Source: an uncultured Chloroflexia bacterium
Lineage (GTDB): Bacteria > Chloroflexota > Limnocylindria > Limnocylindrales > CSP1-4
Assembly: GCA_963720755.1 (NCBI GenBank)
Contig: CAVRGP010000013.1
Location: 163,369 to 227,368 of the forward strand
Direction: 5' to 3'
DNA: 64,000 bases
Shown: piece by piece, positions 58,106-60,103 of the stretch
Layout: every line of letters starts with the position of its first letter
How positions within the stretch are numbered: the first letter of the stretch is position 1
Notes under the pieces: generated by a model
Database searches by the model: none
What the model was told of the DNA's origin: nothing
The model's input: only the letters and a program-made list of their open reading frames with translations
Position numbers and translations under genes: made by a program

Positions 58106-59357
58106 GTGGATGCATGGTTCATCGTGGCTGCCGTCGCGATCGTGGCGCTCACGCTCGTGACGATCGTCGCGCGTCGCCAGCGCGGCGCGCTGGACGGGAT
58201 CCGGCGTGCGCTCGAGATCGGGTCCGAACGCGACCCGGTCGCCGTCATCGCCTCGCTGCACGACCAGGTGGCCCGCGCCGAGGCCACGACCGAGGCGATG
58301 GTCGATGATCGGTCCGCCTTCGTCGATGCGATGGCCCAGGGCGTCCTGTTCGTCGACGACCAGCTCCGGATCGTCTGGGCGAACGCGGCGGCGCACGAGC
58401 TCCTTGGCCGGACCGGCGCGTCGCTCGCCGGCCATTCGGTCATCGAGGCGTTCCTCGACACCGGGGTGGAGGACCTCGCCCGCCTGGCGCTGTCGACCGG
58501 GTCCGCGACCGGCGAGATCGCCGTGGCCGGGGTCGATGGACCGCGCCTGCTCCTTCGAGCCCGCAAGGCGCCGTCGGGTGGCTTGTGGCTCATCCTGGAC
58601 GACGTGTCCGAACTTCGCCGGCTCCAGCAGATCCGGACCGAGTTCATCGACAACCTGTCGCACGAGCTGCGAACCCCGCTGACGACGGTCAGCCTCCTGG
58701 CCGAGACGTTGTCGCGCGAAGCGGAGGCGGCCGGGGACGCCGTCCCGGCCAGGATGCGCGACCGGATCAGCAAGATCGAGGTCGAGACCGGTCACCTCGT
58801 CCAGATGGTCAACGAGCTCCTCGACCTGTCGCGGATCGAAAGCGGTGGGGCTCTCGGGGCTGTGGACCTGCTCGATCTCGGCGACCTGGCGGTCGAGTCC
58901 AGCGAGCGCCTTCGGCTCTTCGCCGAGCGGCAGGCGGTCGATCTGGGCGTCGAGGTCGAGGAGACGATCCCACCGGTCCGGGGGGACGCCGATCGGCTCG
59001 GCCAGGTGCTGGTCAACCTCCTCCACAACGCGGTCAAGTTCAGCCCGGATGGCGGGGACGTGAGGGTGACGGTGCGGACCGACGACGCTGCCGTCATCGT
59101 GGCGGTGGCCGATCACGGCGTGGGCATCCCGCGAGCCGCGCAGGGCCGGATCTTCGAGCGCTTCTACAAGGTCGACCGCGCGCGCGTCCGGGGGGAGACG
59201 GGCGGGACCGGCCTCGGCCTCGCCATCTCCCGTCACATCGTGGAGCAACATGGTGGCCGGATCTGGGTCGAATTCGACGGAGGGCGCCGGGAGCACCTTC
59301 TCGTTCTCGATCCCGGTCGCTGTTGCGGCCGCGCTGCCACGCACCGAGGGATCGTGA
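58106..59357 (+). pseudogene. PhoR/SenX3-like sensor histidine kinase (TM, PAS, HisKA, HATPase_c) with an apparent 1-nt deletion near 59276-59297. The canonical C-terminus (GSTFSFSIPVAVAAALPRTEGS*) is in the +1 frame
   Basis: H-box (SHELRTPLT), N, G1 and G2 boxes in frame A up to RIWVEFDGG. The universal GSTFSFSIP ending appears only in the shifted frame, terminating at TGA that overlaps the next ATG. Confidence 0.7.
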
Positions 59358-60103
59358 TGGATCGACTGCACGTCGCCACGCTCAATATCCGGAACCTGGC
59401 CGATCGCTGGTTCGAGCGGCTGCCGCTCCTGCTCGCCGACATGGCCGCGCTGCAACCCGATCTCCTCGGACTGCAGGAGGTCGTCTACGTCATGCAGCAG
59501 GACCGGCTGATCGGCGCCGCCGGGGAGGGCCACTACGGAATCGTCCGCGGCTGGGCCGGGCGACCGGAATATGGGAACAGCCTGCTCGTCCGCGAGCCGC
59601 TCGTCGCCGTCGGTGCCGATCGCCTCGACCTTGGCCTGCAGCGATCGGCCCAATCGAGCGTTGTGACGATGCCCGGCGGAGCTCGTGTCCAGGTCGTGGT
59701 GACCCACCTGCATCATCTCGTCCCCGACGCGTCCGCGCGTGATGACCAGGCGGCGGCCATCCTCGGCTGGCTCGACGATCGCCCGGACCGTGACGCGACG
59801 ATCGTGATGGGCGACTTCAACGCCCACCCGTCTGAACCCGCGCCCGATCGGCTCAGGGCGGCCGGCTTCCGGTCCGCCTTCGCCGTCGCGAACGGTTCGG
59901 AACCCGCGGTCACCTGGCCGTCGGGTCTGCAGGCGCCGGCGATGGACACGGACGGCGACCCGGCCTGCCTCGACTACATCTGGGTCCGGGGCGCGGTCAC
60001 GGTCGAGTCGGCACGGCTCATCTTCGATCGGCCGGATCCGACGGATCCCACGCTGTACGCCAGCGATCACCTGGGCATCGCCACGATGCTCCAGATCGGG
60101 TAG
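59357..60103 (+). CDS. Endonuclease/exonuclease/phosphatase (EEP) family protein, translationally coupled to the histidine kinase
   Basis: Starts MDRLHVATLNIRNLADRW. EEP motifs (LLGLQEV, GDFNAHPSE, SDHLGIA). ATG overlaps the HK TGA (TGATG). Confidence 0.65.
   Translation: MDRLHVATLNIRNLADRWFERLPLLLADMAALQPDLLGLQEVVYVMQQDRLIGAAGEGHYGIVRGWAGRPEYGNSLLVREPLVAVGADRLDLGLQRSAQSSVVTMPGGARVQVVVTHLHHLVPDASARDDQAAAILGWLDDRPDRDATIVMGDFNAHPSEPAPDRLRAAGFRSAFAVANGSEPAVTWPSGLQAPAMDTDGDPACLDYIWVRGAVTVESARLIFDRPDPTDPTLYASDHLGIATMLQIG

What the first reader, a model, noticed from the sequence alone, without database searches (positions are those of the whole stretch)
58106..60103. Histidine kinase with a frame-shifted C-terminus and a translationally coupled EEP phosphoesterase
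The table shows a 665-aa ORF. The kinase frame loses homology after RIWVEFDGG, and the universal HK ending GSTFSFSIPVAVAAALPRTEGS* is in the +1 frame. That implies a missing base within gacggagggcgcc (about 59276-59290). The shifted frame ends at TGA inside TGATG, whose ATG starts an EEP-family protein (MDRLHVATLNIRNLADRW...). So the real arrangement is HK then an overlapping EEP gene, and what looks like an HK-EEP fusion is an artefact of the frameshift. An EEP enzyme as the operon partner of a PhoR-like kinase, in a locus that also has GDPD, SixA, phoU and pstB, points to a phosphate-scavenging output module. The EEP protein could be a phosphodiesterase or sphingomyelinase-type enzyme, or a nuclease.
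Basis: seen in the sequence. Interest (0 to 1): 0.55.

Follow-up and report, generated by a model that had tools for sequence, protein, structure and literature searches.

The report
Kinase–phosphoesterase fusion made by one extra base
The 665-residue "fusion" is two ordinary neighbouring genes, a phosphate-type sensor kinase and a small phosphoesterase, joined on paper by one extra T that is most likely a long-read assembly error.

Summary
ORF 58106-60103 (665 aa) carries PAS, HisKA, a HATPase_c cut at 94 of 111 profile positions, and an EEP domain. The missing kinase tail (…EGAGSTFSFSIPV…TEGS*) lies in the +1 frame and ends at TGA 59355-59357, which overlaps ATG 59357 of the EEP gene.

The sequence has one base too many, not one too few, and the best placement is the TT at 59273-59274, where orthologues have a single T.

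All 120 closest EEP homologues are stand-alone proteins of 248-256 aa. In 80 related Limnocylindria/Chloroflexota loci the order kinase → EEP → GDPD is conserved, and the EEP gene usually has its own Shine-Dalgarno sequence.

An extra base at this same codon occurs in 5 of 44 Nanopore-only MAGs and in none of 36 other MAGs or 13 JGI contigs. The Nanopore loci carry 72 frameshifts per 260 kb, 68 of them +1, against 2 per 176 kb. The tail evolves synonymously in the kinase frame.

Verdict: an artefactual fusion (about 0.85) laid over an ordinary but conserved PhoR-like kinase–EEP–GDPD operon. The phosphate-scavenging role is plausible and untested.

One caveat remains. The partner response regulator holds the only other frameshift I detected in the window.

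The parts
58106..59274 (+). Sensor histidine kinase, frame-0 part. It has an N-terminal hydrophobic helix (residues ~4-22), PAS (68-169), HisKA with H-box SHELRTP (nt 58658-58678), the N box, G1 (DHGVGIP), F (IFERFY) and G2 (GGTGLGL) boxes, and the strand RIWVE.
   Evidence: Pfam PAS/PAS_4, HisKA and HATPase_c. The best NCBIfam hits are PnpS, WalK and PhoR, all below cut-off.
59273..59274 (+). TT where orthologues have one T. One of these two bases is the extra base that shifts the frame by +1. It turns GTCGA-A-TCGAC into the perfect palindrome GTCGAATTCGAC.
   Evidence: Deleting either T gives RIWVESTEGAGSTFSFSIPV, which matches the orthologue consensus WVESTEG.GSTFSF. All 13 JGI contigs with the same flanks lack the extra base.
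59275..59357 (+). Kinase C-terminal tail in the +1 frame (…TEGAGSTFSFSIPVAVAAALPRTEGS), with stop TGA at 59355-59357.
   Evidence: Translation. HATPase_c is restored to profile positions 1-109 of 111. Between the window and L004 there are 6 synonymous and 1 non-synonymous codon differences in this frame, against 0 and 6 in the ORF frame.
59346..59351 (+). Shine-Dalgarno-like GAGGGA, 5 nt upstream of the EEP ATG.
   Evidence: Sequence. An equivalent AAGGAG/GAGGGA lies upstream of the EEP start in most relatives.
59357..60103 (+). Stand-alone EEP (endonuclease/exonuclease/phosphatase) family phosphoesterase of 248 aa. It has no signal peptide, since the fold's first strand starts at residue 2.
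   Evidence: Pfam PF03372 at 78.6 bits, full length. All 120 best homologues are 248-256 aa with PF03372 only. Catalytic N10, E41, D153/N155, D206 and D237/H238 are invariant. The AlphaFold model shows an EEP fold with TM 0.76 to TDP2.
60112..60780 (+). Cytoplasmic UgpQ-like glycerophosphodiester phosphodiesterase (GDPD), 222 aa.
   Evidence: Pfam PF03009 at 84.6 bits. It lies downstream of the EEP gene in 79 of 80 related loci.
60750..62024 (+). FAD-dependent oxidoreductase of the DAO family (sarcosine/glycine-oxidase-like). The start codon is uncertain.
   Evidence: Pfam PF01266 at 162 bits. NCBIfam soxB and ThiO hits are below cut-off. It is present in 57 of 80 loci.
53893..54589 (+). OmpR/PhoB-family response regulator and probable partner of the kinase. 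It is also split by a +1 frameshift, an extra G in the GGG at 54298-54300.
   Evidence: tblastn shows frames 2 then 3 meeting at 54300, with 90-93% identity to the intact L002 regulator. The repaired 231-aa protein hits MtrA, YycF and PhoB below cut-off.
62036..64000 (-). Phosphate-related context: a SixA-like His_Phos_1 protein (62036-62521), PhoU (62538-63296) and PstB (63310 to the window end, incomplete).
   Evidence: Pfam. NCBIfam phoU_full scores 175 bits against a cut-off of 130, and sixA scores 64.6 against 74.5.

Best explanation
Window 58106-60103 holds two genes, not one. The first is a membrane-anchored PAS-HisKA-HATPase_c sensor kinase of the PhoR/PnpS/WalK type (416 aa). Its last 27 codons run in the +1 frame and end at TGA 59355-59357. 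The second is a separate 248-aa EEP phosphoesterase that starts at ATG 59357 behind its own Shine-Dalgarno sequence. One extra T at 59273-59274 merges them into a 665-aa ORF. That base is most likely a consensus error of a long-read (Nanopore-type) assembly at a site prone to such errors, not a feature of the organism's DNA. Biologically, the kinase, EEP, GDPD and DAO genes form a conserved co-oriented cluster in Limnocylindria, close to the phoU-pst genes. I infer the following. The kinase and the OmpR-family regulator 4 kb upstream respond to phosphate status through the PhoU/Pst proteins. The EEP enzyme is a cytoplasmic Mg2+-dependent phosphodiesterase or phosphomonoesterase that works alongside the UgpQ-like GDPD to release phosphate or glycerol-3-phosphate from organophosphates. 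What is shown: the gene structure, the frame, the conservation, the intact catalytic residues and the association with sequencing technology. What is inferred: that the extra base is an error (no reads were available), phosphate regulation, and the substrate.
For: Frames and stops were read directly. HATPase_c rises from 94 to 109 of 111 profile positions, and from 95 to 114 bits, after one base is removed. All 120 best EEP homologues are stand-alone. Among 80 species-representative loci, 78 have the kinase upstream and 79 have GDPD downstream. The kinase tail is intact in the same frame in all short-read MAGs where both motifs were found. An extra base at the same codon occurs in L004 (T), L006 (C), L016 (A), L046 (A) and L047 (G), which are all Microflora Danica MAGs. 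PMC12313526 describes these as Nanopore-only, assembled with Flye and polished with one round of Medaka. The site frequency is 5/44 against 0/49 in short-read MAGs plus JGI contigs (Fisher p=0.02). About 0.19 events are expected by chance in a 15-nt window, giving P(≥5) of about 1.6e-6. All five carriers have other frameshifts nearby. The overall burden is 72 frameshifts per 260 kb in the Nanopore loci, 68 of them +1, against 2 per 176 kb (p=3e-14). Window and L004 differ by 20% in DNA and share the extra T, yet their tails differ by 6 synonymous and 1 non-synonymous codon in the kinase frame, against 0 and 6 in the ORF frame. The tail is therefore translated in the kinase frame. PMC9262707 reports that Nanopore consensus indels cause frameshifted gene calls, especially below about 40x coverage. 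The window's contig is 306 kb and deposited in ENA and NCBI, as the MFD MAGs are.
Against: No reads and no same-species short-read contig could be found. The closest relatives are no more than 80% identical in DNA, so the error is inferred and not observed. The window's sequencing platform is unknown. The only two internal frameshifts my coding-potential scans found in 64 kb lie in the two partner genes of one two-component system, which is unlikely for random errors. One close lineage (L001/L005, not a Microflora Danica MAG) has lost this regulator and most of this kinase while keeping the EEP, GDPD and DAO genes. I could not explain the hot spot. GANTC, TCGA, GATC and palindromes are not enriched at the other frameshift sites.
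Confidence: 0.85

Rival explanations
1. The extra T, and the extra G in the regulator, are real recent mutations. This lineage is losing its PhoR-like two-component system, and the 665-aa product, if made, is a crippled kinase fused to the EEP domain.
For: The only two internal frameshifts detected in 64 kb hit the regulator and the kinase of the same system. The related lineage L001/L005 retains only the last 11 codons of the regulator and residues ~276-408 of the kinase, yet keeps intact EEP, GDPD and DAO genes. The window's overall frameshift density (2 in 64 kb) is much lower than in typical MFD loci.
Against: The kinase lesion sits exactly on a site that is hit independently, with different inserted bases, in five Nanopore-only MAGs and never in 49 other assemblies. 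The tail shows purifying selection in the kinase frame between the window and L004, which share the same T. There is no further decay: the regulator is 90-93% identical to intact orthologues on both sides of its shift.
Confidence: 0.1
2. The extra base is real and the kinase tail is still made. This would happen through programmed +1 ribosomal frameshifting, or the site would be a reversible mutational switch that toggles the kinase between an intact form and a truncated or fused form.
For: An extra base recurs at one codon in six species while the +1-frame tail stays conserved. The site lies in a near-palindrome, GGTCGA-A-TCGACC, that the extra T makes perfect.
Against: The inserted base and its exact position differ (T, T, C, A, A, G), so there is no common slippery sequence. 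In L006 the zero frame stops after 6 codons, while in the window and L004 it runs on. About 90% of orthologues, including the interleaved close relatives, need no shift. No short-read assembly shows the insertion. There is no homopolymer run long enough for slippage. Palindromes are not enriched at the other frameshift sites.
Confidence: 0.03
3. A genuine, selected bifunctional kinase-EEP fusion protein.
For: A continuous 665-aa ORF exists here, and a 657-aa equivalent exists in L004. The 665-aa protein is in public collections as P0121.
Against: The 26-residue linker has no homology, and its sequence changes non-synonymously between the window and L004 (0 synonymous, 6 non-synonymous). The fusion removes the last core strand of the ATP-binding domain. 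None of the 120 homologues is fused. The EEP gene keeps its own start codon and Shine-Dalgarno sequence.
Confidence: 0.02

Closest known systems
PhoR / PnpS / WalK-type class I sensor histidine kinases (E. coli PhoR, S. pneumoniae PnpS)
   Same: The architecture is the same: a short membrane anchor with no sizeable extracellular domain, then cytoplasmic PAS, HisKA and HATPase_c. These are the best NCBIfam hits. The gene lies near phoU and pstB. The Pho-regulon review describes PhoR as lacking a periplasmic sensor domain and acting together with PhoU and Pst (PMC4415409).
   Different: Scores are below every equivalog cut-off (PnpS 266 against 400, PhoR 237 against 334). The regulator is not adjacent and lies 4 kb upstream, beyond proS and a DnaJ-domain gene. 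Phosphate responsiveness was not tested.
E. coli UgpQ and other Pho-regulated glycerophosphodiesterases (GlpQ)
   Same: The GDPD gene immediately downstream is cytoplasmic, with no signal peptide, like UgpQ. GlpQ and UgpQ are listed as common phosphate-starvation scavenging enzymes (PMC4415409).
   Different: Here the GDPD gene is paired with an EEP enzyme and a DAO-family oxidoreductase rather than with an Ugp transporter. NCBIfam scores are below cut-off.
EEP-superfamily enzymes with solved structures: TDP2, Nocturnin and uncharacterised Bacteroides EEP proteins (3g6s, 3mpr, 3teb)
   Same: The fold is the same (Foldseek E 3e-15, TM 0.72-0.77). The Mg2+-binding and catalytic residues are all present. 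A weak sequence match to Nocturnin was found (E 5e-6).
   Different: Identity is only 17-24%. The substrate-binding loops are poorly modelled (pLDDT below 50 at residues 186-203 and 224-236). No substrate class can be transferred.
Pho-regulated secreted EEP nucleases (V. cholerae Xds, P. aeruginosa EddB), recalled from my own knowledge and not checked here
   Same: An EEP-domain enzyme linked to the phosphate-starvation response.
   Different: Those are large secreted multidomain nucleases. This protein is a minimal 248-aa cytoplasmic EEP, and the ExeM/NucH model scores 21 bits against a cut-off of 300.
Frameshifted, split or fused gene calls in Nanopore-only MAGs
   Same: A single-base indel in the consensus, of the same +1 type as 68 of 72 events in related Nanopore loci. 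The phenomenon is described in PMC9262707.
   Different: The site is not a long homopolymer (T to TT) and recurs across species, which ordinary random indels do not do.

Membership tests
Class I sensor histidine kinase (HisKA + HATPase_c) | HisKA dimerisation domain with the phospho-acceptor His (H-box) | tested here: met
   PF00512 scores 62.6 bits against a cut-off of 26.9. The SHELRTP motif is at residues 185-191.
Class I sensor histidine kinase (HisKA + HATPase_c) | Complete HATPase_c domain, including the strand after the G2 box (GSTFxFxLP) | tested here: met
   The feature is met only after one base is removed: profile positions 1-109 of 111 at 113.9 bits. In the ORF as given, coverage is 1-94 of 111 at 95.3 bits and the last strand is out of frame.
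PhoR / PnpS equivalog (NCBIfam TIGR02966, NF046044) | Whole-protein score above the curated cut-off | tested here: not met
   PnpS scores 265.8 against 400. PhoR scores 236.7 against 334.2. PRK11006 scores 149.7 against 390.
PhoR / PnpS equivalog (NCBIfam TIGR02966, NF046044) | Genomic association with pst and phoU and with a PhoB/PhoP-type regulator | tested here: met
   PhoU is above its cut-off, PstB is adjacent, and an OmpR-family regulator lies 4 kb upstream. Relatives also carry PHO4 and PhoU_div genes.
PhoR / PnpS equivalog (NCBIfam TIGR02966, NF046044) | Kinase/phosphatase switching in response to phosphate supply | not testable with these tools
   This needs expression or phosphotransfer experiments.
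EEP superfamily (Pfam PF03372) | Score above the gathering threshold over the full-length domain | tested here: met
   The score is 78.6 bits against 24.5, covering profile positions 1-225 of 225.
EEP superfamily (Pfam PF03372) | Conserved metal-binding and catalytic residues (N, E, D-x-N, D, D-H) | tested here: met
   N10, E41, D153, N155, D206, D237 and H238 are invariant in 39 sequences.
EEP superfamily (Pfam PF03372) | Four-layer alpha/beta sandwich fold | tested here: met
   The model has pTM 0.79 and mean pLDDT 72.5. Foldseek gives TM 0.76 to TDP2 and 0.77 to 3g6s.
ExeM/NucH extracellular EEP nuclease | NCBIfam NF033681 above cut-off; secreted multidomain protein | tested here: not met
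   The score is 21.3 bits against 300. There is no signal peptide and no extra domains.
Natural kinase-EEP fusion protein | Orthologues encode both domains in one polypeptide | tested here: not met
   None of the 120 homologues is fused. The kinase has its own stop before the EEP start in the related loci, except in frameshifted Nanopore MAGs.
Programmed +1 ribosomal frameshift (prfB-like) | A conserved shift site and stimulatory signals shared by orthologues | tested here: not met
   The inserted base and its position vary. About 90% of orthologues are in frame, and no common slippery motif exists.
Glycerophosphodiester phosphodiesterase (GDPD, UgpQ-like) | Pfam PF03009 above threshold; NCBIfam equivalog cut-off | tested here: inconclusive
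   The Pfam criterion is met (84.6 against 23.6). NCBIfam PRK09454 scores 81 against 264, so that criterion is not met.

The most novel reading that the evidence does not exclude
The recurrent extra base at one codon of the kinase, seen in six species with the downstream tail still under selection in the kinase frame, is biological. It would be either +1 translational recoding or a reversible indel hot spot at the TCGA-A-TCGA near-palindrome. Either would switch a PhoR-like kinase between an intact form and a form that is C-terminally truncated or fused to the EEP domain.
Probability: 0.03. Interest if true: 0.7.

Novelty: new member of a known kind. Interest (0 to 1): 0.17.

Why it matters
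The main value is practical. The 665-aa "kinase-EEP fusion" (and a 657-aa twin in the nearest reference MAG) is already in public protein collections. It would mislead domain-architecture surveys, so it should be read as two genes. The case also shows that Nanopore-only MAGs of this high-GC soil clade carry about 0.3 frameshifts per kb in conserved genes, almost all insertions, and at least one cross-species hot spot. That is relevant to anyone mining these catalogues for pseudogenes, fusions or recoding. Biologically, the conserved kinase-EEP-GDPD(-DAO) cluster next to phoU and pst marks an uncharacterised cytoplasmic EEP subfamily as a candidate organophosphate-salvage enzyme in Limnocylindria. 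That is a modest but testable lead.

Tried and rejected
- **Motif causes of the hot spot.** I tested k-mers of 4-6 nt within ±20 nt of 50 frameshift sites and found nothing significant beyond a weak CGCG signal. I also tested GANTC, TCGA, GATC, GTCGAC and CGATCG within ±8 nt of 47 other sites. GANTC was seen 0 times against 1.2 expected, and TCGA 12 times against 10.6. I therefore dropped a methylation-motif explanation.
- **Palindromes.** They are not enriched at the other frameshift sites (Mann-Whitney p=0.35).
- **More frameshifts in the window.** A GC3 frame plot was too noisy. Codon log-odds segmentation and sliding scans flagged only the regulator and the kinase. Candidates at about 50495 and about 31860 turned out to be normal gene borders, DnaJ-domain protein | DtxR-like repressor and NlpC/P60 | SnoaL. 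Short out-of-frame stretches in weakly scoring genes could still have been missed.
- **A same-species short-read copy for a direct test.** The metagenome scan gave 13 contigs, all without the extra base, but at most 77% identical to the window. No near-identical EEP was found for the other frameshifted species in short-read sources.
- **Provenance.** The 665-aa protein is in the collection, but its contig could not be retrieved.
- **Other searches.** The afdb50 fold library was unavailable. The promoter/terminator scan and the Rfam search of 53-64 kb gave nothing useful. Literature searches for an EEP partner of PhoR found nothing specific.
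Full report
**What is in the sequence.** The window holds a GTG-initiated ORF at 58106-60103 on the plus strand, encoding 665 aa. Pfam finds PAS/PAS_4 (residues ~68-169), HisKA (177-247), HATPase_c (293-389, but only profile positions 1-94 of 111, 95.3 bits) and Exo_endo_phos (424-655). 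Three-frame translation shows that frame 0 reads …HGGRIWVEFDGGRREHLLVLDPGRCCGRAATHRGIVMDRLHV…. The +1 frame reads …NSTEGAGSTFSFSIPVAVAAALPRTEGS* and stops at TGA 59355-59357, which shares its A with ATG 59357-59359.

**Direction and position of the lesion.** Passing from frame 0 to frame +1 means the given sequence carries one base too many (or two too few), not one too few. Deleting any single base between 59270 and 59295 yields a 416-aa kinase with the canonical ending. That repair restores HATPase_c to profile positions 1-109 of 111 at 113.9 bits. Orthologues decide the position. The window reads GTCGAATTCGACGGAGGG, while L015 reads GTCGAATCGACGGAGGG and L009, L010 and L011 read GTCGAATCGACCGAGGG. 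The extra base is thus one T of the TT at 59273-59274, and the repaired protein reads RIWVESTEGAGSTFSFSIPV, matching the WVESTEG.GSTFSF consensus.

**Two genes, not a fusion.** A search of the 5.8-billion-protein collection with the EEP part returned 3,774 hits. The best 120 (76-84% identical) are all 248-256 aa and carry PF03372 alone. A scan of one genome per GTDB species gave 80 loci, almost all labelled Limnocylindrales or Chloroflexota. Of these, 78 have the kinase upstream, 79 have a GDPD gene downstream, 57 have the DAO-family oxidoreductase, and most also have proS and a DnaJ-domain gene upstream. In relatives the kinase ends with its own stop a median of 20 nt before the EEP start (range -1 to 109). 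An AAGGAG/GAGGGA Shine-Dalgarno sequence usually lies 5-6 nt upstream of the ATG, and the window has GAGGGA at 59346-59351. The 1-nt TGATG overlap is shared only with L004 and L077. The close spacing supports co-transcription, but the overlap itself is not a conserved device.

**Why the extra base is probably an assembly artefact.**
- *The same codon is hit in other Nanopore MAGs.* An extra base occurs there in L004 (T, as in the window, giving a 657-aa fused ORF), L006 (C), L016 (A), L046 (A) and L047 (G). All five are Microflora Danica MAGs. According to PMC12313526 these are Nanopore-only assemblies made with Flye and one round of Medaka.
- *Other assemblies lack it.* None of the 36 other (mostly short-read-style) MAGs has it. 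None of the 13 JGI metagenome contigs that share the exact 23-nt context has it either. That is 5/44 against 0/49, Fisher p=0.02.
- *The overall burden is technology-linked.* I ran a tblastn census of six conserved genes. The Nanopore loci carry 72 frameshifts in 260 kb, 68 of them of the same +1 type, and 26 of 44 loci are affected. The other MAGs carry 2 doubtful ones in 176 kb (p=3e-14). All five carriers of the hot-spot insertion have further frameshifts in neighbouring genes.
- *The tail is still under selection in the kinase frame.* The window and L004 are only 80% identical in DNA and share the same extra T. Over the 15 alignable tail codons they differ by 6 synonymous and 1 non-synonymous codon in the kinase (+1) frame, against 0 and 6 in the ORF frame. 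The tail has been translated in the kinase frame throughout their divergence. That is incompatible with an inherited real frameshift unless recoding is invoked.
- *The phenomenon is documented.* Nanopore consensus indels that break gene calls, especially in bins below about 40x coverage, are described in PMC9262707.
- *Provenance is consistent.* The 665-aa protein exists in the public collection on a 306-kb contig from NCBI and ENA. That fits a long-read MAG, but I could not retrieve the record, so the platform of the window remains an inference.

**What remains unexplained.**
- *The site is a real hot spot.* About 0.19 events are expected by chance in a 15-nt window across 44 loci, and 5 are seen (P about 1.6e-6). 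Frameshifts elsewhere in these genes are scattered.
- *I could not explain the hot spot.* The intact sequence GGTCGA-A-TCGACC is a 13-nt palindrome, and every affected species has GANTC there. However, GANTC, TCGA, GATC and palindromes are not enriched at the other 47-49 frameshift sites. A context-specific, perhaps strand-specific, base-calling error with partial penetrance is my inference, not a result.
- *Both partner genes are hit.* The only other internal frameshift my scans found in the whole 64-kb window is in the OmpR-family response regulator at 53893-54589, the likely partner of this kinase. It is an extra G in the GGG at 54298-54300.
- *A related lineage has lost the system.* L001/L005, which is not a Microflora Danica MAG, keeps only the last 11 codons of that regulator and about the last third of the kinase. 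It retains intact EEP, GDPD and DAO genes.
- *How I weigh these points.* They keep a real, recent inactivation of the system alive as a rival (about 0.1). The exact coincidence with the Nanopore hot spot, and the lack of any further decay, argue against it for the kinase site.

**Recoding and a true fusion.** A programmed +1 frameshift would need a conserved shift site. Here the inserted base and its position differ among species. The zero frame stops after six codons in L006 but runs on in the window and L004. About 90% of orthologues need no shift. A selected bifunctional fusion is contradicted in three ways. The linker is unconserved. The last core strand of the ATP-binding domain is lost. 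The EEP gene keeps its own start codon and Shine-Dalgarno sequence.

**What the genes are.**
- *Kinase.* It has one N-terminal hydrophobic helix, no extracellular domain, a cytoplasmic PAS domain, an H-box (SHELRTP) and all the nucleotide-binding boxes. Its best NCBIfam matches are PnpS, WalK and PhoR, all below the equivalog cut-offs. I therefore call it PhoR-like by architecture and neighbourhood, not a proven PhoR.
- *Phosphate context.* Downstream on the opposite strand lie a SixA-like protein (below cut-off), PhoU (175 bits against a cut-off of 130) and PstB. Relatives add a PHO4/PhoU_div pair.
- *EEP protein.* It starts directly with the first strand of the fold, so there is no signal peptide. 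It keeps every metal-binding and catalytic residue (N10, E41, D153/N155, D206, D237/H238, invariant in 39 sequences). It models as an EEP fold (pTM 0.79, pLDDT 72.5). The nearest solved structures are TDP2, Nocturnin and uncharacterised Bacteroides EEP proteins at 17-24% identity. The substrate loops are poorly modelled, so no substrate can be assigned.
- *GDPD.* It is cytoplasmic and UgpQ-like. GlpQ and UgpQ are classic phosphate-starvation enzymes (PMC4415409).
- *Likely role.* The most likely role of the EEP enzyme is cytoplasmic hydrolysis of a phosphodiester or phosphomonoester derived from imported or membrane-derived organophosphate, co-expressed with the GDPD. This rests on context only.

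**Verdict.** The overlap is lineage-specific. The phosphate-scavenging role is an untested inference. The feature is ordinary, and its interest is mainly as a data-quality warning plus a small lead on an uncharacterised EEP subfamily.

Noticed in passing
window 53893-54589 (site 54298-54300): The OmpR/PhoB-family response regulator is split by a +1 frameshift, GGG where GG restores the frame. The repaired 231-aa protein is 90-93% identical to the intact L002 orthologue. Together with the kinase it is the only internal frameshift my scans found in 64 kb.
   Followed up: yes
L004 ~5890, L006 5918-5920, L016, L046 and L047 5887-5889 (the codon equivalent to window 59270-59276): There is a cross-species hot spot. 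Five of 44 Nanopore-only MAGs carry one extra base (T, C, A, A, G) within about 4 nt of the same Glu/Ser codons of the kinase. None of 36 other MAGs or 13 JGI contigs does. The cause was not identified.
   Followed up: partly
L004-L083, conserved genes ProS, DnaJ, HK, EEP, GDPD and DAO: Frameshifts in the Nanopore-only loci are strongly insertion-biased. 68 of 72 shift the frame by +1, at about 0.28 per kb of conserved coding sequence, against about 0.01 per kb in the other MAGs.
   Followed up: yes
L001 1257-1967 and 7239-7975 (same contig as L005): This related lineage, which is not a Microflora Danica MAG, has lost the two-component system. Only the last 11 codons of the regulator and residues ~276-408 of the kinase remain, the latter with an in-frame gap that removes HIVEQHGGRIWVES.EG. 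The EEP, GDPD and DAO genes are intact.
   Followed up: partly
L004 4774-6747: The nearest GTDB representative (MFD05684.bin.2.219) has the same extra T and the same artefactual fused ORF (657 aa). The window's 665-aa product is itself in public protein collections (P0121). The artefact is therefore propagating into databases.
   Followed up: yes
window 54600-55130: About 540 nt between the regulator and proS have no convincing coding signal. Relatives L001 and L002 carry a PHO4 (Pit-like) and PhoU_div gene pair on the minus strand at this position. Rfam found nothing here.
   Followed up: partly
window 59270-59281: The extra T creates a perfect 12-nt palindrome, GTCGAATTCGAC, containing an EcoRI site. 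The intact orthologous sequence GGTCGA-A-TCGACC is an odd palindrome with two TCGA sites.
   Followed up: partly
L046 5850-6000: The kinase tail of this Nanopore MAG changes frame at least twice within about 60 nt, and the last frame runs into the EEP gene. It is another example of local error clustering.
   Followed up: no
window 49220-51269: A second DnaJ-domain protein (49220-50539) is followed by a DtxR-family, FeoA-domain metal-dependent repressor (about 50544-51269). My frame scan first flagged their border as a possible frameshift, but Pfam shows two complete, unrelated genes.
   Followed up: yes
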